From a virus (taxonomy: Duplodnaviria > Caudoviricetes): a stretch of 38,828 nt of DNA. Within the stretch, counting starts at the first letter, position 1, and every line of letters begins with the position of its first letter. The DNA is taken from positions 1-38,828 of the IMG/VR virus record IMGVR_UViG_3300037515_000431. One strand, written 5' to 3'. The notes beneath the pieces were generated by a model. It was not told the origin of the DNA and ran no database searches. It saw only the letters and a list, made by a program, of their open reading frames with translations. This document shows, piece after piece, positions 339 through 38,828 of the stretch. Position numbers and translations under genes: made by a program.

Positions 339-767
339 TTAGTCCTGCCGTGTAATCCCGGTAGTGACCTGAATAATTGTTAAATTATTTTGATTTGGAG
401 TGTCTTTTTCACGCCAGCCGTGACGAGCTTTTGTGTAATAGATACACGCAAGCACATTTCCATTGGTTGCCTGTTCCCGGAGAGAGTTAGAAACCTCAAA
501 TTCATCCATCGCGCAGCCATTATTTATGGCATCGTCTATTTGAGGAAAATCTAACCTCAAACTCTCCAAATCCCGCAACCTCATCCCCAGACTATATGCC
601 ACATACTCCGCCTTAGCGCCTATGCTGCATAGCTCTTGAATCTTATCTATATCCAATTGGGTAATTTGCTTGGTAAATCCGTTAGCCAGTTTGACTATGG
701 GTAGAGTATTACCCGGCATTAGTTCGGCTTGGGTGAGGGTAACTTCTTTTCGCTTTGATCTAGCCAT
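339..767 (-). CDS. terS: Terminase small subunit (putative)
   Basis: HTH-like N-half, then SLREQATNGNVLACIYYTKARHGWRE, typical of TerS C-termini. Lies upstream of terL across the junction. Confidence 0.7.
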   Translation of the reverse strand: MARSKRKEVTLTQAELMPGNTLPIVKLANGFTKQITQLDIDKIQELCSIGAKAEYVAYSLGMRLRDLESLRLDFPQIDDAINNGCAMDEFEVSNSLREQATNGNVLACIYYTKARHGWREKDTPNQNNLTIIQVTTGITRQD

Positions 768-1263: not shown

Positions 1264-2157
1264 ATGCAAATGAAAGACGCACCAAAAAGAGACATTCATC
1301 AAGAAGTTACAGACAAGATTCTGGCTATTATGGAAGCCGGTAAATTGCCCTGGGAAAGGCCATGGCGTAAAGGGTCAAACAATGCTGATGGTTTGTTACC
1401 TTACAATGCAGTAAGCCGCACTAATTACTCTGGAATCAATCTACCGCTTTTGTGGGCCTCTGAGGGTGACTATGGCAGCAACGCATGGCTAACCTATAAA
1501 CAGGCTCAAAGCCTCGGAGGGAACGTTAGAAAAGGCGAATCAGGCTCTATGGTCGTTTTCTTTAAGCCGCTTATAGTAGAGGACAAGAAAACTAATGAGA
1601 AACTAACAGTACCGTTATTACGCAAATATACTGTATTTAATGTTGAGCAGTGTGAAAACCTGCAAGTACCAAAATTAAAACCTGTCACACCCCACATAAG
1701 CCCTCGTGGGGCTGTTTTGGATTTGGCAGTATACAATGCCATGGCAATAAAGCATGGAGGAGACAAGGCGTTTTATAGCCCATCTGAGGACTATATCGCA
1801 TTGCCACATTTTGATCAGTTTAAGAGCGAAGCTTTATATTCTTCCACCTTGGCGCACGAACTGACCCATTCTACCGGCCACAAAGACCGGCTTAACCGTG
1901 ATTTAAGTGGCATGTTCGGATGTGCTAAGTACGCTAAAGAAGAGTTAATAGCAGAGCTTGGAAGCGCTTTTTTAATGGCTGAACTGGGACTTGAATATGA
2001 AGCCCGTCATGCCGCAGCGTATTTGCAAAGCTGGATTAGCGGCTTGAAAGACGATAAAAAGCTAATCTTTCAAGCGGCAGCAGCCGCAAGCAAAGCAGTA
2101 GGCTTGCTACAAGGCAGGCTACATTTAGATAGTAATAAAATTACAGCAGCAGCATAA
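1264..2157 (+). CDS. ardC: ArdC-family anti-restriction / ssDNA-binding protein with zincin-like C-terminal domain
   Basis: LPWERPW, YSGINL, WLTYKQAQSLGGNVRKGE, YTVFNVEQ, HELTH, YAKEELIAELGSAFL, YLQSW motifs. The true start may be the ATG at 1270. Confidence 0.92.
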   Translation: MQMKDAPKRDIHQEVTDKILAIMEAGKLPWERPWRKGSNNADGLLPYNAVSRTNYSGINLPLLWASEGDYGSNAWLTYKQAQSLGGNVRKGESGSMVVFFKPLIVEDKKTNEKLTVPLLRKYTVFNVEQCENLQVPKLKPVTPHISPRGAVLDLAVYNAMAIKHGGDKAFYSPSEDYIALPHFDQFKSEALYSSTLAHELTHSTGHKDRLNRDLSGMFGCAKYAKEELIAELGSAFLMAELGLEYEARHAAAYLQSWISGLKDDKKLIFQAAAAASKAVGLLQGRLHLDSNKITAAA

Positions 2158-4846: not shown

Positions 4847-5161
4847 TCACTTGCGCTTTTTTGTAACCCCGCGCTTTTCACTCAATCGCATACGGATACT
4901 TCGCTGTAAATTAATGTGATCTTCCAGCATCTTTTTTGTAACCCGTGCTCCATTTTTTGATGGCGTTCGGTTGAATTTACTTGCTTCAATTTTTATAGCC
5001 AAAAACTCTGACAGGTTTTTTTTAGTAGACACCAGCAGATTGAAATAAGCGGCAGAATAATTTGTTTCCCGCGCAAGCTGCTCACGTTCTTTTGTTGTCA
5101 AAGTTGTTAAATAGTCGTATAAGTTGCTTACTTCTTGCGGCTCAATAAATACCATGGGCAC
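4847..5161 (-). CDS. Cro-like transcriptional regulator
   Basis: EREQLARETNYSAAYF...LAIKIEAS pattern; divergent from the cI-like gene. Confidence 0.7.
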   Translation of the reverse strand: MPMVFIEPQEVSNLYDYLTTLTTKEREQLARETNYSAAYFNLLVSTKKNLSEFLAIKIEASKFNRTPSKNGARVTKKMLEDHINLQRSIRMRLSEKRGVTKKRK

Positions 5162-5166
5162 CCCCC

Positions 5167-5296
5167 TTTATAAAGGTTATATATATAAAAACACAAAACG
5201 ATTATATACTCAATATAAACAAACAGAGAAGGATAAAAATATTTTTTTAAAAAAATGATTGGACTTTTTGGATGAATACTATATATTGATTATATA
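5167..5296. promoter_or_regulatory. cro/cI divergent control region with three candidate operators
   Basis: TTTATA-AAGGT-TATATA (5167-5183), TATATA-CTCAA-TATAAA (5203-5219), TATATA-TTGAT-TATATA (5280-5296). Confidence 0.75.
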
Positions 5297-5333
5297 GCGC
5301 CTACCAACGCTACCTAAAACCGGAGAGATTAAT

Positions 5334-5792
5334 ATGAGCATAGAAACGCCAATGATCATCGCAGAACAACGCAGAATTAACGCCAGAGAGCTATTAAAAC
5401 AGTGTGATAGCAATAGGGACTTTGCTGCACGAGTAAAGATTAGTGGCGCGCAAGTCACTCACCTATTAGGCCCACACCCAACTTTTAATATAGGGGATAC
5501 AATCGCCAGGCGCATCGAAAAAGGCTTTAATAAGCCCGATTACTGGCTTGATATGGATCACACCGTAGAGCTGGGAGATGATAATGTAACAATAGAGCTA
5601 ATGCTGGAAGCGGTAAGGGTACTCAACGAAACCCTGAAGAAAAACAAAATGCAAATCGACAATATAGACCAAACACTATATAACGACATTTTAAGACATA
5701 TTATTTACACCGCGATCCCGCTGGGCAAAGTCTCCCCCTCCCAGATTCAAAGTACGCTGACACTTTCTCGCGTTTCTAAAATCGCAAACTAA
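5334..5792 (+). CDS. CI-like repressor (HTH); no recognisable S24 peptidase domain
   Basis: RRINARELL...FAARVKISGAQVTHLL...NIGDTIARRIEKGFNKPDYWLD, typical of phage repressor N-domains. Confidence 0.8.
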   Translation: MSIETPMIIAEQRRINARELLKQCDSNRDFAARVKISGAQVTHLLGPHPTFNIGDTIARRIEKGFNKPDYWLDMDHTVELGDDNVTIELMLEAVRVLNETLKKNKMQIDNIDQTLYNDILRHIIYTAIPLGKVSPSQIQSTLTLSRVSKIAN

Positions 5793-6876: not shown

Positions 6877-7071
6877 ATGACTTCACTCTTTTCGGCAGCT
6901 GAAAAGAAATTGCTCAAGCAAATTGAAACGGGCAACGCATTTTTTAATTGTCCATACAAAAAAAACAGTGCCAGATATAAATATTGGTATGAGCAGTTAG
7001 AAAAAAAAGACCAACTTAGTTTTAACTTTCAATCGGAGAAAAAAAATGGCAACACCGAAGCTCGGTTATAA
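6877..7071 (+). CDS. Hypothetical protein
   Basis: In operon, with RBS. Confidence 0.55.
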   Translation: MTSLFSAAEKKLLKQIETGNAFFNCPYKKNSARYKYWYEQLEKKDQLSFNFQSEKKNGNTEARL

Positions 7072-7705
7072 AAACGCAGACGGAAAAAAAATTCCAGGTA
7101 CAACCACCATCATTGGCAGATTTAAAGACAGTGGCGGCCTCCTGCACTGGGCACACAAACAAGGTGCGGATGGCAAAACGTTGTACGAAGAGAGAGACAA
7201 GGCCGCAGAATGTGGAACGCTTGCTCACGAAATGGTAGAGCGCTTTTTGAATGATCAAGATCCGATGAAGGTGCTTGATAACGTAGAAGCAGAAATGGCA
7301 TTAAAGGCGCTCAATGCGTTTCAAATGTTCAGGGATTGGAAAGACCAAACAAAAATTAAAATCATCAGCAAGTATCAGGAAATACAAATGGTTTCCGAAC
7401 GCTATCAATACGGTGGCACCCCGGATGCAATTGGAATGCTGAACGGCAAATATATTTTGCTCGATTGGAAAACCAGCAACAGCGTGTACTCGGATTATTT
7501 GATGCAGTTAGCGGCATACAAAATCCTGTGGGAAGAGAATGATCATCCCATAATTAACGGTGGCTTTTATCTTTGCCGCTTTTCTAAAGACTTCCCTGAT
7601 TTTTCAGTGCATTATTTTGAAGAACTGGAATTAGCTGCTAAACAATTTCTTTTGTTCCGCGAGTGTTACGAGAACGACAAAGAGTTGAAAAAGAGAGTGA
7701 AGTAA
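7046..7705 (+). CDS. PD-(D/E)XK exonuclease
   Basis: GTTTII, GTLAH, YGGTPDAIG, LLDWKTS, QLAAY motifs. Confidence 0.88.
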   Translation: MATPKLGYKNADGKKIPGTTTIIGRFKDSGGLLHWAHKQGADGKTLYEERDKAAECGTLAHEMVERFLNDQDPMKVLDNVEAEMALKALNAFQMFRDWKDQTKIKIISKYQEIQMVSERYQYGGTPDAIGMLNGKYILLDWKTSNSVYSDYLMQLAAYKILWEENDHPIINGGFYLCRFSKDFPDFSVHYFEELELAAKQFLLFRECYENDKELKKRVK

Positions 7706-8234: not shown

Positions 8235-9599
8235 ATGAGCACCAGAACCTACTTAGACCCCCATACAAATATCATGTATGAATTGCCTGCCGGTTTATCA
8301 AAAAACAATAAAAATATTTATGGCAAATGGAGATACAGGCATCCAACAAAGTTTGATGGTAAGCAATGCTGTCTTACAAAATTCATTGAGGGGTTGCCAG
8401 CCATTGTTTTGCCGGAAGAAGCCATCAAAATTGCTAACGACCTAAACAAAGCATTCAGTACTGAAGAGTGTCGCCCAAAATTAAAAACTAGTGGTCTTAC
8501 TGTATTAGCTGAAGAATTTATAAAAAGCGAGCGTGAAAGGCGCAGAGAAAACTCTGGCAACATGCGAAGACGCTTCATTGAAGAGTGTGCGGCTGTCAGA
8601 AAAACGGCAGCTCAATTGGAGCACATTAATTTACGAGATTTAACAGACGGCTTGTTAACCGACTGGTGGCATAACAGAAATCAATTTAACAAACCTTGCT
8701 ATATAAAATCTCCTTGCACACAAAGAAACCATAAACATATATTAAAACTGTTTGTCGGCTTTTTGTTGCTCAAAGGATGTACTGGCCTTGAGCGTAATAT
8801 TTTTAATTTCAGAAACGGTGACGTTTCTGCCAACTTCAAGAAAGAGGAGCCTAAAAAACGCAACCGAATAACTATCCAGCAGTTTTATAAAATCAGGCAA
8901 CTTGCCATAGATGATGGGGTGCAGTGGCTGGCGGATGCCATGACAATTGCTCTGGTAACCGGTTTGCGGCGCGGAGATATAGTTTCGCTTGAGTTTAATG
9001 GCAATATTGTAGATGGGAAGATCAGGACGGTTATTCACAAATCTGAATCCCAGCTTGGATTGGTTAGAGCGGCACACAAACAAATTACTTTAAAAAATAA
9101 TCGTGAGATTTTGGATATAGTAAATCGCGCATTAATTAGTAGACACCTGGCCGCACGAGAAACAAAAGAGGCAGTGGAATTACGGCCTGCCATTCATATC
9201 ATTCATGACTACACGGCTCGCATTAGAAAAGCAAAAGGCAAAACCCATTATTCACAAATCACAAAAGACAGATTATCAAAAACATTTAAAAAGTACAGAA
9301 ACAGGTTGCCGGAGCTTGAGCCATTGGCGGCGCATGAAAAATGTTCATTCCATGAAATCAGAGCGCTGTGGGTAGCTGCCCGTAAAAACCTGGGCCACAA
9401 CATTAAAGACATTCAAAAAGATGCTGCGCACCAGCACGAAAGCACTACCAATAAATATGGTGATGGACATGCTATTCAATATGAGGAGCTTGCTTATTGT
9501 CTGACTGAAGAAGATATGCGCAACCATGCGCTGTGGGAAGACGAGCACCAGGATGATCTAACCAGCACTATTGCGATTAAAAAGGCAGGTGGACAATGA
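8235..9599 (+). CDS. int: Tyrosine recombinase / integrase
   Basis: TGLRRGDI (R), FHEIR (HxxR), AAH, TTNKY (Y) catalytic residues. Confidence 0.92.
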   Translation: MSTRTYLDPHTNIMYELPAGLSKNNKNIYGKWRYRHPTKFDGKQCCLTKFIEGLPAIVLPEEAIKIANDLNKAFSTEECRPKLKTSGLTVLAEEFIKSERERRRENSGNMRRRFIEECAAVRKTAAQLEHINLRDLTDGLLTDWWHNRNQFNKPCYIKSPCTQRNHKHILKLFVGFLLLKGCTGLERNIFNFRNGDVSANFKKEEPKKRNRITIQQFYKIRQLAIDDGVQWLADAMTIALVTGLRRGDIVSLEFNGNIVDGKIRTVIHKSESQLGLVRAAHKQITLKNNREILDIVNRALISRHLAARETKEAVELRPAIHIIHDYTARIRKAKGKTHYSQITKDRLSKTFKKYRNRLPELEPLAAHEKCSFHEIRALWVAARKNLGHNIKDIQKDAAHQHESTTNKYGDGHAIQYEELAYCLTEEDMRNHALWEDEHQDDLTSTIAIKKAGGQ

Positions 9600-16078: not shown

Positions 16079-16154
16079 ACGGATGTAGCTCAGTTGGTAG
16101 AGCGATGCCTTGACATGGCATAGGTCGAGAGTTCGAGCCTCTTCATCCGTACCA
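16079..16154 (+). tRNA. tRNA-Val(GAC)
   Basis: 76-nt cloverleaf: ACGGATG/CATCCGT acceptor, GCTC/GAGC D-arm, ATGCC-TTGACAT-GGCAT anticodon arm, TTCGAGC T-loop, encoded CCA. Confidence 0.96.
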
Positions 16155-16626: not shown

Positions 16627-17124
16627 ATGAAATCAAGAACCATCATCACCCTTGCCTCTACCATCCCTGTAATCACCTGGTTCACAAGAAAAGCTGTAGC
16701 CCTCTACGTGCCCTCAGACGCTCTTTTGTGGATACCGGCATGGATCAACCCTATAGACTTTATTCTGTCCTACAGCTTTGAAATAAGCCTCCTGATAGTC
16801 ATGCCTGCCATGCTGTTATGGGGATGGGCAACCCTGAAAAAAGAACAGGAATCTGTCAGCAATGAATATATTGATCCATTCGACCTGTTTATTAGGGATA
16901 TATACATGAAAAGGGAATCTATTGATCCAATCGACCTGTTTATTAAGGATATATACATGAGAGTTGATCCGGCCTATCTGCAAAAAGAAGCTAGATATTG
17001 CAAAAAAGAACTTGGCACTTTTTTAGAAAAAAACAACAAAAAATGGCGCGAGAAACACAGCCAGGCATTGCTAGACAAAAGAGAAGAGTTTAGAAAAGCT
17101 AACCCTCTACCAGGCTCTGAATAA
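16627..17124 (+). CDS. Membrane protein with an internal 17-aa tandem duplication
   Basis: Hydrophobic N-half; IDPFDLFIRDIYMK / IDPIDLFIKDIYMR. Confidence 0.65.
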   Translation: MKSRTIITLASTIPVITWFTRKAVALYVPSDALLWIPAWINPIDFILSYSFEISLLIVMPAMLLWGWATLKKEQESVSNEYIDPFDLFIRDIYMKRESIDPIDLFIKDIYMRVDPAYLQKEARYCKKELGTFLEKNNKKWREKHSQALLDKREEFRKANPLPGSE

Positions 17125-35932: not shown

Positions 35933-36140
35933 TAGCTAAAGTTAATAACGACATAATCCCTGCTTCTTTACGTTTCATTGGGTTAATCATCCCGCAGCTT
36001 TCCTGATAATCCCACGCCAGAAATAACCCACGGTTCGGATTAACAAAAACATTCTTATGCCGAACCTCACCAGTGCTTCTAAAAACACGAGTGGGCCGCG
36101 CAATATCTTCAATAGTGGCATCTCTGCATTTCAATTCCAT
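35895..36140 (-). CDS. Hypothetical protein
   Basis: TGATG coupling to terL. Confidence 0.55.
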   Translation of the reverse strand: MELKCRDATIEDIARPTRVFRSTGEVRHKNVFVNPNRGLFLAWDYQESCGMINPMKRKEAGIMSLLTLANAGVGNEESGNS

Positions 36141-37465
36141 CAGCAGCTCCTGATAACCTTTCCGCGAGGCATTGCAGATAAATAACGGTGATCGCTAGTA
36201 ACGCGGCCCCGATTAAAGCTCTCGTCGTAACAAACGGCTAAGTAGCGAAAGGAATCCGCTCCGTGTACAAACTGATCCTTATGTTCCAGATTTAAAAACT
36301 GCCCTGTTCGCTCATCTTTCTTTTTACGAAAATTTTCAAGGCAATCCACACCAGCAGCAGTCTTAGTCTTATCAAACACACAGCGAGACAAAACCGTGCG
36401 TACCGCATGAATACCGTCTTCTTTAGAAATCTTTTTACTCGATACCGTAACATCAAACCCCATCTCCCGAACACACTCAAGCCGCGTTCTCCCAGTAAAC
36501 AAATCATGCACACCAATATCCCATGGCATAAATAATTCAGCATATACATAAGGTTTGTACTGAATTTCTTTCAATACATCCATCAACCCAACACCTACAA
36601 ACTCCTGGTATTCAATCAACCGTATTTCGTTTTGAAAAAATTGTGCAAACCACAACGCAGTGTGATCGCTATAGCCAAGATCAAATGCAACAAACACCGG
36701 CAAACAAGGCTCATAAGGTACAGACATAATCCGCCCCTCTTCATGTACCCGTTTCATTTCATTATCGTAAAAGCTACCTTCAATCCCTGCGCTCCAATCA
36801 CATAACATTTCCTGACGAAATTTGTTTTCAGGCATTGAATCCCTCATGCTCTGTAATTCTTTTTCTGACAGTATCCCGGTCTCATCAGCTCGATACGTTG
36901 CACAAAACCATTCATCATCATTCATGGCCATGCGTTCCTGCGCTCTCCTGAAAATATCGTAGAATTGATTCTTGCCCTGTGGGGTGCCCAAAAAAGTTGC
37001 ACCACCTCCCCGGTCTGCACAAGCTGGCCTACAAACCTCTTCCCAAATAGAAACAGGCATCAAGCCGTACTCATCAAATACAATGTGATCTATAAATACA
37101 CCGCGCAAAGAATCCGGGTGATCAGCCCCCAGACACTGAATGATGGCTTCATTCCCATCTCCCAGCGGAATAACAACCTTCAACTCACTTTCGTATTGTT
37201 TTACGTTGGGCAAGTTATAGGTGTAAGTCTTTAAAACTCCCCACGCAATACGTTTGGCCTGTACCAGATACGGGGCCATATAAAACATTTGGGGCTTATG
37301 TAGAGGACAATTAATGGATAAATCAATTAATTCATTGATGGCTAACACCGTCTTGCCGAACCGACGATGTAGCGCAAGTACAGAGAACCTGGTTAAACGC
37401 TTATGCAGCTCCGCTTGCAATGGGCGAGGTGTATAACCAGTACTGACAACCTTGATTTGTGCCAA
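36140..37465 (-). CDS. terL: Terminase large subunit
   Basis: HRRFGKT Walker A; LRG...IVFDEY Walker B; GTPQG; DLGYSD and HGADSFRY nuclease motifs. Confidence 0.95.
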   Translation of the reverse strand: MAQIKVVSTGYTPRPLQAELHKRLTRFSVLALHRRFGKTVLAINELIDLSINCPLHKPQMFYMAPYLVQAKRIAWGVLKTYTYNLPNVKQYESELKVVIPLGDGNEAIIQCLGADHPDSLRGVFIDHIVFDEYGLMPVSIWEEVCRPACADRGGGATFLGTPQGKNQFYDIFRRAQERMAMNDDEWFCATYRADETGILSEKELQSMRDSMPENKFRQEMLCDWSAGIEGSFYDNEMKRVHEEGRIMSVPYEPCLPVFVAFDLGYSDHTALWFAQFFQNEIRLIEYQEFVGVGLMDVLKEIQYKPYVYAELFMPWDIGVHDLFTGRTRLECVREMGFDVTVSSKKISKEDGIHAVRTVLSRCVFDKTKTAAGVDCLENFRKKKDERTGQFLNLEHKDQFVHGADSFRYLAVCYDESFNRGRVTSDHRYLSAMPRGKVIRSC

Positions 37466-37496
37466 TGGCCAAAAACCCCGCTTGAAAGCAGGTGAT

Positions 37497-37579
37497 CATA
37501 TAACACTTATATACAAATTAACAAGCAATCACAATGGTTTGCAAAAAGCAAAGCCCAGTTGACATATAATAAATATAAA
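37497..37579. promoter_or_regulatory. Two candidate operators upstream of terL
   Basis: CATATA-ACACT-TATATA (37497-37513); CATATA-ATAAA-TATAAA (37563-37579). Confidence 0.55.
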
Positions 37580-37588
37580 CCAATAGAT

Positions 37589-37627
37589 AAAAAAATAGCG
37601 CACGAACTGCCATGCGCTATTTTTTTT
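37589..37627 (-). terminator. Terminator closing the RAMP gene + array transcript
   Basis: Minus strand ATAGCGCA-TGGCAGTTCG-TGCGCTAT-TTTTTT, a few nt after the array. Confidence 0.85.
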
Positions 37628-37635
37628 CATTAGGC

Positions 37636-37997
37636 TGCCCTGCCCCGCGTTGCCTTGCCATGTCTTGCCTCGCCAAGCCATGCCTGCCTCGCCTCGCCAA
37701 GCCATGCCTGCCTCGCCTTGCCAAGCCTTGCCTCGCGCTGCCGTGCCACACCCCGCCTTGCCAAGCCTGCCAAGCCATGCCTAACCCTGCCCCGCCTAGC
37801 CTCGCCTTGCCCCGCCTGCCAAGCCCTGCCTAGCCGTGCCATGCCTAGCCTGCCATGCCTGGCCATGCCTGGCCATGCCAAACCCCGCCTAGCCTTGCCT
37901 GCCTCGCCTTGCCTTGCCTTGCCATGTCTTGCCTAGCCATGCCATGCCTGCCTCGCCTTGCCAAGCCTTGCCCTGCCTAGCCCGGCCTCGCCATGCC
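37636..37997 (-). ncRNA. (GGC-NN)n pentamer array in 8 units delimited by GGCA; candidate guide-RNA array
   Basis: 66 pentamers + 8 GGCA tetramers = 362 nt; 67 of 74 fixed triplets are GGC (3 GGT, 2 GAC, 2 CGC). The repeat is seen directly; RNA function is inferred. Confidence 0.8.
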
Positions 37998-38004
37998 TAT
38001 CTTC

Positions 38005-38673
38005 TTAATCAACTTTGGCAGTAGTAACCCCAACTGATCTGTCCACTTCAAACCTGCCAAAATCACCACCCTTCTCCGGCCTCATCTCCCCTATCCCAAC
38101 ACCAAAACCAGCACGGTCAATCAAATTTAAAATATCACCAATCTGTACAAGCTCCTCATCCAACTCAAACTCAAATTCACACGACCACCTGGCAAACTCA
38201 GGCCTATACCGCAAATCAGCAGAACCAGCCCCAACCCGAACCATATCCTCCCGCAATACAGGCTCAGGTGCCTCAATCGGAATAACCCCATGCAAATCAT
38301 CACAAATAATAAAAAAAGCCTTACGCAATAACGTCTTCTCAAATCCAATATCTTTATGAGCCGCAGAAATAATTGCCGACTTTAACGCCATGGCCGATAT
38401 ACCAACATGCCCACCAGACGTGTAATAAGTAGCCGCCTTTACTTCCGCTTCAGGATTACGCAACTCACGCTCCTTTGTCTTCTTCCCCTGCTGCTGCTTC
38501 TCCCTCATCTCCCTTTTTGCCTTCTCAGACCACTTGTGAAAAACAGCCCTCGATATAGACCGTATCGTAACCCTGTACCGACCCTTCCTGATCGTCTTTA
38601 AACGCACCGTTTTATATTCACCAACCGCTACGTCTTCAGCAGCACTTTCACTAACTTTATCTTTGCCTTTCAT
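38005..38673 (-). CDS. Solo RAMP/Cas7-like protein
   Basis: YRVTIRSIS..VFH first strand; GISAMALKSAIISAA helix (cf. RAMP IP.SSLKG.LR); C-terminal Gly-rich loop AGFGVGIGEMRPEKGGDFGRFEV. Confidence 0.8.
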   Translation of the reverse strand: MKGKDKVSESAAEDVAVGEYKTVRLKTIRKGRYRVTIRSISRAVFHKWSEKAKREMREKQQQGKKTKERELRNPEAEVKAATYYTSGGHVGISAMALKSAIISAAHKDIGFEKTLLRKAFFIICDDLHGVIPIEAPEPVLREDMVRVGAGSADLRYRPEFARWSCEFEFELDEELVQIGDILNLIDRAGFGVGIGEMRPEKGGDFGRFEVDRSVGVTTAKVD

Positions 38674-38728: not shown

Positions 38729-38745
38729 AATATAATCATTATATA
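38729..38745. promoter_or_regulatory. Candidate operator upstream of the RAMP-like gene
   Basis: AATATA-ATCAT-TATATA. Confidence 0.55.
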
Positions 38746-38828
38746 GTACAAATACTCCATATAAACAATAACCACAATTACACATATACCAACAAGGGGA
38801 ATGGGAAGGGGGGGATTGGATAGGAGGG

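What the first reader, a model, noticed from the sequence alone, without database searches (positions are those of the whole stretch)
37636..37997. Array grammar: eight GGCA-delimited units, five with exactly nine dinucleotides
Minus-strand NN strings read by hand. U1 37997-37949: AT GA CG TA AG AA TT AA GA. U2 37948-37900: AT AT TA AA AT AA AA AA GA. U3 37899-37851: AA TA GG TT AT CA AT CA AT. U4 37850-37817: TA AT AC TA AG TT. U5 37816-37768: GG AA GA TA GG AG TA AT TT. U6 37767-37709: TT AA GG GT AC AG GA AA TT AA GA. U7 37708-37685: AT TT GA GA. U8 37684-37636: AT TT GA AA AT AA AA GG AG. Every phase break is the same tetramer GGCA, and the modal 49-nt unit holds 18 variable nt, comparable to a guide's information content. 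Simple slippage would not be expected to give constant unit length with diverse NN. Inference: GGCA is a processing or filament-boundary signal.
Basis: partly seen in the sequence, partly recalled or inferred. Interest (0 to 1): 0.88.

Follow-up and report, generated by a model that had tools for sequence, protein, structure and literature searches.

The report
Phage VIPR staggered guide-RNA array
This repeat follows a phage Vipr gene and has the layout of a known RNA-guided system (VIPR); its GGCA breaks likely mark the borders of about eight guide RNAs, an arrangement already reported, so it is a new example of a known system.

Summary
All eight unit boundaries and NN strings are correct. 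There are seven true 4-nt phase breaks, all GGCA; the eighth 'GGCA' is only the array end. The array begins 8 nt after a 222-aa gene that matches SUSP1 Vipr (phmmer E 4e-6, profile E 6e-10), has a predicted Csm3/Cas7 fold (Z 11.9) and keeps the GGY-reading residues. It is therefore a VIPR locus. The GGCA break fits the published 'staggered' array with a 1-nt overlap (10.64898/2026.04.26.720920, fig. S18 legend). In homologous arrays 310 of 370 four-base breaks are GGCA and unit length is 8-12 with mode 10, not exactly nine. The cassette lies between the small and large terminase genes of a sediment phage and lacks the partner gene found in 32 of 40 close loci. Its NNs are unusually A/T-rich, and units share 21-32-nt blocks. 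No target was established and no RNA data exist, so processing at GGCA remains inferred. Verdict: new member of a known kind.

The parts
37636..37997 (-). GGY/NN (vrRNA) array: 66 pentamers in 8 units separated by 7 GGCA phase breaks at 37952, 37903, 37854, 37820, 37771, 37712 and 37688
   Evidence: TRF period 5 and 49
38005..38673 (-). vipr gene, 222 aa, RAMP fold with G-loop; stop codon ends 8 nt before the array
   Evidence: phmmer to SUSP1 Vipr 36pp_D E 4e-6; profile E 6.2e-10; model pLDDT 86; Foldseek and VIA hits to Csm3/Cas7; residue mapping
37589..37627 (-). Terminator-like hairpin after the array (A8, 9-bp G+C-rich stem, T7); predicted end of the transcript
   Evidence: fold of 37640-37570 gives -25 kcal/mol, z -4.98, 0 of 200 shuffles; not called by the consensus terminator scan
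38738..38765 (-). Sigma-70-like promoter candidate upstream of vipr (10 of 12 matches); weak
   Evidence: 3 sites found against 2.0 +/- 1.6 in shuffles, so no excess
36140..37465 (-). Terminase large subunit, the next gene downstream (context)
   Evidence: Pfam PF03237 E 1.2e-5; phrog_2 E 1.3e-31
339..767 (-). Terminase small subunit, the next gene upstream across the contig join (context)
   Evidence: phrog_309 E 3.4e-11; a 623-nt X2 contig spans the join

Best explanation
This is a VIPR locus, a Vipr gene followed by a GGY/NN array, and it likely makes one transcript that would be cut at or next to each GGCA into about eight short guide RNAs. By analogy with the solved SUSP1 complex, one Vipr protomer would grip each GGY and present the NN pairs. 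These would read double-stranded DNA two bases at a time with one base skipped, so a nine-NN unit would cover about 26 bp and silence it by binding. GGCA+GGC equals a last pentamer GGCAG whose final G is also the first G of the next unit: the 1-nt-overlap 'staggered' layout. Shown here: the grammar, the Vipr homology and fold, the conservation of GGCA and of 8-12-pentamer units in relatives. Inferred: transcription, cutting, the 1-nt skip for this clade, and the targets (likely rival phages or mobile elements). Membership in VIPR alone is about 0.97; the confidence given is for the full active, processed-guide model.
For: Vipr homology: the only PDB sequence hit is SUSP1 Vipr. The A1 profile finds SUSP1's vipr in KT454805.2 at E 3.8e-12. 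SUSP1 H17, R39, R138, D177 and R179 align to H46, R69, R157, E196 and R198; H46, R69, R157, E196 and R198 are invariant in 48 aligned relatives. Their roles come from 10.64898/2026.04.26.720927. Fold: Csm3/Cas7, Z 11.9, rmsd 3.7, 157 aligned. Arrays were called in 60 of 104 homologous loci, and all 83 lie on the vipr strand. 310 of 370 four-base breaks are GGCA. Close-clade units have mean 9.65 and sd 2.79, matching the 9-16 repeats of described vrRNAs. Inner NN frequencies of homologs (n=1077) correlate with codon positions 1-2 on the sense strand (r 0.62) and not with other frames (r -0.46 to 0.22), as a wobble-skip code predicts. The last NN before GGCA is constrained (2.96 bits against 3.9 in the middle), as a boundary motif would be.
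Against: No target was established for any unit under the 1-nt skip. Among 156 homologous units against 2.2 Mb of phage loci, skip 1 did not beat other skips: matches of 0.85 or more numbered 4, 6, 4 and 6 for skips 0-3, a low-power test. The codon model fits the NN counts only slightly better than a uniform model (log-likelihood -2982.8 against -2986.1). The partner gene present in 32 of 40 close loci is absent from this genome, and SUSP1 needs vap1 in natural infection (10.64898/2026.10.15.759431, passage). SUSP1 W178, and W in 90% or more of the clade, is M197 here; K33 and K82, needed for silencing in SUSP1, align to G63 and H106 in a 39-of-178-identity alignment. U4 and U7 have only 6 and 4 NN. 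There is no 3' tail per unit like the type II pseudoknot.
Confidence: 0.6

Rival explanations
1. The array stays one long RNA. GGCA only resets the five-base register, so Vipr builds separate filament segments on an uncut transcript, each reading its own target.
For: No ribozyme or known RNA family lies in the array (Rfam finds only a tRNA in the window). Units do not fold better than NN-shuffled controls (window z -1.5 to +1.6; 125 homolog units mean z 0.07). No partner enzyme is encoded. The discovery paper states sRNA confirmation for ribozyme and single-vrRNA loci, not for staggered arrays.
Against: The fig. S18 legend of 10.64898/2026.04.26.720920 draws these borders as ends of processed vrRNAs (figure not seen). 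The strict A in GGCA (310 of 370) suggests sequence-specific recognition rather than any register slip.
Confidence: 0.2
2. This is a decaying VIPR cassette: the partner gene was lost and the array now drifts by duplication and recombination, so most units no longer aim at anything.
For: No partner gene. NN A+T is 0.77, the highest of 25 arrays compared (others 0.34-0.67), and rarefied entropy is second lowest. Units share 32, 28 and 21-nt identical blocks. U3 has an internal repeat. W178 is replaced by M.
Against: The vipr frame is intact with all 40 invariant columns of the family alignment. 62 of 66 scaffolds are canonical GGY. All 7 breaks are intact GGCA. The cassette keeps a terminator-like hairpin. 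Active arrays may also grow by recombination: similar shared blocks appear in homologs such as L037, L051 and L058-L064.
Confidence: 0.17
3. It is an ordinary pentanucleotide microsatellite, or a low-complexity protein-coding repeat, unrelated to the neighbouring gene.
For: Short ORFs of 83 and 93 aa overlap the array, and a homologous array is annotated as a CDS in phage Donkeykong.
Against: The same grammar, on the same strand, sits beside Vipr genes in 60 of 104 loci. Four-base breaks shift the frame every unit. No other such array lies in the genome.
Confidence: 0.03

Closest known systems
VIPR staggered vrRNA arrays (10.64898/2026.04.26.720920, fig. S18)
   Same: Vipr gene plus a continuous GGY/NN tract in which successive units overlap by 1 nt; phage-encoded; units of about 9-12 repeats.
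   Different: I saw only the legend, so I could not check that the published overlap is the GGCA motif. The word GGCA was not found in that paper's text or supplement. This locus lacks a partner (vap) gene.
Type II VIPR of phage SUSP1 (PDB 36PP; 10.64898/2026.04.26.720927)
   Same: Homologous Vipr (39 identities over 178 aligned positions) with the GGY-reading residues kept; same GGY/NN grammar.
   Different: SUSP1 vrRNAs are separate ~100-nt RNAs, each with a pseudoknot tail, and the operon has vap1. Here units abut with only GGCA between them, scaffolds are mostly GGC, and there is no vap.
Class 1 CRISPR Cas7/Csm3 backbone
   Same: RAMP fold (Z 11.9 to Csm3); expected to polymerise on a guide RNA.
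   Different: No repeat-spacer array and no cas operon; specificity would be noncontiguous.

Membership tests
VIPR | Vipr-family protein | tested here: met
   Only PDB hit is SUSP1 Vipr, E 4e-6 and 6.2e-10; profile finds SUSP1 vipr at E 3.8e-12
VIPR | RAMP fold with G-loop, thumb and GGY-reading residues | tested here: met
   Model pLDDT 86; Csm3/Cas7 top hits; H17, R138, D177, R179 map to H46, R157, E196, R198, while W178 maps to M197
VIPR | Adjacent tandem GGY/NN repeats on the vipr strand | tested here: met
   66 pentamers, 62 with GGY, starting 8 nt after the stop codon
VIPR | 9-16 repeats per vrRNA | tested here: met
   6 of 8 units hold 9-11 NN; 2 of 8 are shorter, with 6 and 4
VIPR | Phage-encoded minimal locus without cas operon | tested here: met
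   Flanked by terminase, portal and capsid genes; 22 proteins scanned in PHROGs, not every ORF
VIPR | vap accessory gene (typical, not stated as universal) | tested here: not met
   Profile of 26 partner proteins from close loci finds nothing in six frames of the genome, best E 0.9; both neighbours are terminase genes
VIPR | vrRNA expressed and bound by Vipr | not testable with these tools
   No RNA holder listed
VIPR | 1-nt-skip DNA targeting | tested here: inconclusive
   No credible target; weak codon 1-2 signature in homologs
VIPR staggered array | Units overlap by 1 nt with no tail or ribozyme between them | tested here: met
   7 of 7 breaks read as GGCAG sharing its last G with the next GGC; no Rfam match in the array
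VIPR staggered array | Processing at the overlap | not testable with these tools
   No RNA reads
VIPR type II (SUSP1) | Separate vrRNAs each with a 3' structured tail, plus vap1 | tested here: not met
   Units abut directly; SUSP1 arrays are tailed; no vap
VIPR types I-VII | Placement in the published Vipr phylogeny | not testable with these tools
   Fig. 5A, fig. S16 and data S4 are not held as text
Class 1 CRISPR-Cas | Repeat-spacer array with contiguous spacers and a cas operon | tested here: not met
   No such array in TRF or Rfam; a single RAMP gene

The most novel reading that the evidence does not exclude
This is the smallest self-sufficient VIPR: one 222-aa protein with no accessory gene, ribozyme or tail, which itself cuts the array at GGCA. 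It would be a one-gene, self-processing multiplex guide system in which a four-base word separates guides.
Probability: 0.2. Interest if true: 0.65.

Novelty: new member of a known kind. Interest (0 to 1): 0.3.

Why it matters
The system and the staggered layout are published, so the finding does not open a new class. It still adds a little. It names the boundary word (GGCA, 310 of 370 four-base breaks) and the unit-length range (8-12) for this branch; neither was found in the texts I could search. It also offers a partner-less two-part locus, a clean test of how staggered arrays are processed and whether Vipr alone suffices. If Vipr cuts at GGCA, the array would be a compact format for multiplexed gene silencing.

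Tried and rejected
Target searches with exact 1-nt-skip patterns: U6 (22 bases) gave 0 in viral, metagenome and genome contigs. U1 (18 bases) gave 0 in viral contigs. The 16-base core of U6 gave 31 loci in 19 distinct contexts, best 20 of 22, about what chance gives by my estimate. U5 gave 55 metagenome loci in 23 contexts with no consistent codon phase. U3 gave 10 viral loci in 6 contexts, against 2 for a 2-nt-skip control; one control is too few, and codon periodicity favours period-3 patterns. U2, U4, U7 and U8 were not searched in public collections. All 8 units against the own genome and 24 loci gave no self-target; the best match for nine-NN units was 15 of 18 under every skip. One Donkeykong unit gave 14 loci, best 20 of 22, not credible. 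Unit hairpins looked significant under dinucleotide shuffles (z to -2.9) but vanished when the scaffold was kept: rejected. Sequencing runs: no RNA holder listed. No Pfam family for Vipr or its partner. The partner profile does not hit SUSP1 or ESCO56, so I could not name it vap1-6. Host not identified: the nearest cultured portal is 43% identical, in Vibrio phages, and the nearest Vipr in genomes lie in Planctomycetota bins at 50-60%. The wide structural search was not run because the machine was busy. The Vipr structures postdate the fold library, so no direct superposition was made. Earlier findings: none on this genome.

Full report
Observation. On the minus strand, 37997-37636 is a run of 66 five-base units: 59 GGC, 3 GGT, 2 GAC and 2 CGC scaffolds, each followed by two variable bases. 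Seven 4-base phase breaks exist and all are GGCA. The eighth 'GGCA' is the last in-phase pentamer, so U8 may have 9 or 10 NN. With breaks placed at random, five equal lengths among eight has P=0.0006, and four among the first seven P=0.0065. Contigs of run X1, which may be the source, reproduce the whole array without differences; runs X2 and X4 independently reproduce 37847-38072 and 37934-38322.

Surroundings. The window is a whole 38.8-kb assembly of a phage with terminase, portal, capsid, tail, endolysin and integrase genes. Its best holders are sediment metagenomes. A 623-nt contig of run X2 maps with bases 1-462 to window 464-1 and bases 461-623 to 38828-38686. I take these as one record because length and depth (5.83) agree; the join differs by about 20 nt. 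The order on the minus strand is thus terminase small subunit (767-339), a 222-aa gene (38673-38005), the array 8 nt after its stop, a strong hairpin with a T tract (37627-37589; z -4.98), then terminase large subunit (37465). The cassette looks inserted between the two terminase genes (inference).

The protein. It has no Pfam match and matches the unnamed phrog_4652. It has 1434 relatives among 1765 candidates. Its only PDB sequence match is SUSP1 Vipr, E 4e-6 singly and 6.2e-10 with a 48-row profile; the profile also finds vipr in the SUSP1 genome. The model (pLDDT 86) matches Csm3/Cas7 RAMPs (Foldseek E 1e-5; Z 11.9, rmsd 3.7, 157 residues). In a 103-row alignment SUSP1 H17, R39, R138, D177 and R179 fall on H46, R69, R157, E196 and R198. 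W178 falls on M197, and K33 and K82 on G63 and H106, in a low-identity region (39 identities over 178 positions). The roles of these residues are from 10.64898/2026.04.26.720927 (parts 1-2 of 6 read).

Homologous arrays. Of 104 viral loci with a Vipr relative, my caller found arrays in 60. All 83 arrays lie on the vipr strand, and 82 are distinct. Some loci are near-clones, and L001 and L033 are one contig, so counts are not fully independent. Of 370 four-base breaks 310 are GGCA. I counted only units bounded by GGCA-type breaks on both sides (217, 205 distinct); others were dropped. In the close clade, 125 of 162 units hold 8-12 pentamers, against 18% for random breaks; the mode is 10 (38 units) and 9 is second (27). 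The last NN before GGCA is constrained (2.96 bits against 3.9 mid-unit). Inner NN frequencies correlate with sense codon positions 1-2 (r 0.62; the five other single frames -0.46 to 0.22), but the likelihood gain over uniform is only about 3 log units. Units form no special hairpins once the scaffold is held fixed.

What is odd here. A conserved ~165-aa partner gene follows vipr in 32 of 40 loci checked (37 of the 50 closest viral loci, chosen by hand, plus 3 genome loci). A profile of 26 of these finds the partner in phages ODay and Donkeykong but nothing in this genome (best E 0.9). The NNs are 77% A/T, the highest of 25 arrays with 35 or more NN (others 34-67%), and entropy is 3.08 bits with 11 of 16 dinucleotides used. 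Units share identical blocks of 32, 28 and 21 nt, so duplication or recombination shaped the array.

Targets. None was established. U6 had 0 exact skip-1 matches in three collections, and U1 had 0 in viral contigs. The U6 core, U5 and U3 gave scattered matches that look like chance; a skip-2 control for U3 gave 2 against 10. No self-target was found. 156 homologous units showed no skip-1 excess in 2.2 Mb of phage loci. These tests need exact matches or cover little sequence, whereas published natural targets are accepted at 80% NN match, so they neither support nor refute the code. No RNA run is listed.

Mechanism. Most likely one transcript runs from upstream of vipr to the hairpin and is cut at or beside each GGCA. 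Vipr would then polymerise one protomer per GGY and present NN pairs to DNA with every third target base skipped, silencing by binding. Grammar, homology, fold and family conservation are shown. Transcription, cutting, skip rule and targets are inferred from SUSP1 work. Rivals: an uncut RNA with register resets (0.2), a decaying cassette (0.17), an unrelated repeat (0.03).

Comparison with what is known. VIPR was described in 10.64898/2026.04.26.720920 (whole text read; supplement part 5 of 5 and a term search; figures and data files not visible). It lists 'staggered arrays with overlapping vrRNAs', and the fig. S18 legend says vrRNAs derive from 1-nt overlapping positions, the end of one marking the start of the next. 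GGCA followed by GGC is such an overlap; that it is the same motif is my inference. The paper reports sRNA confirmation for ribozyme and single-vrRNA loci, not for staggered ones. In 10.64898/2026.10.15.759431 (passages) SUSP1 needs both vipr and vap1 against its satellite. 10.64898/2026.10.21.760802 (passages) recovers VIPR arrays at scale. The word GGCA was not found in those two main texts or in the first paper's supplement. A search for vrRNA plus staggered listed only the discovery paper, and one for GGCA with pentanucleotide repeat, phage and array found nothing. The unseen figure S18, data S4 and closed preprint supplements may already show the motif or partner-less loci.

Verdict. Interest 0.3. 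The open, testable point is whether this partner-less Vipr processes its own array at GGCA.

Noticed in passing
window 339-767 and 36140-38673: The VIPR cassette separates the small and large terminase genes across the contig join.
   Followed up: partly
window 16079-16154 (+): tRNA-Val(GAC) gene.
   Followed up: no
window 1264-2157 (+): Anti-restriction protein, phrog_7245 E 7e-79.
   Followed up: no
window 8235-9599 (+) and 4847-5792: Integrase and a divergent pair of regulator-like genes suggest a temperate phage.
   Followed up: no
window 7046-7705 (+): Exonuclease (phrog_298) with a weaker match to a family labelled CRISPR-associated (phrog_1706); likely an ordinary recombination nuclease.
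   Followed up: no
window 16864-16960: Near-duplicate 51-bp segment inside a 165-aa ORF.
   Followed up: no
L106 1486-1872 (phage Donkeykong gp48): A GGCA-broken GGY/NN array is annotated as a hypothetical protein; this cultured mycobacteriophage, and Gordonia phage ODay (L105), offer ready test systems.
   Followed up: partly
L008, L009, L011, L013, L018: Variant boundary: GGCA followed by a fixed GTTGA-like pentamer, often preceded by ggtTT.
   Followed up: no
L025, L034, L041, L045: Paired 4+6-base breaks (for example GGTC then GGTCAA) that restore the five-base register; possibly one-base slips within a unit.
   Followed up: no
L037 4833-7513: Three arrays with 29 clean units in one locus, the largest set seen.
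   Followed up: no
L046 6594-7100: The conserved partner of this Vipr clade matches phrog_15946 (unknown function) and no Pfam family; its profile does not hit the SUSP1 locus.
   Followed up: partly
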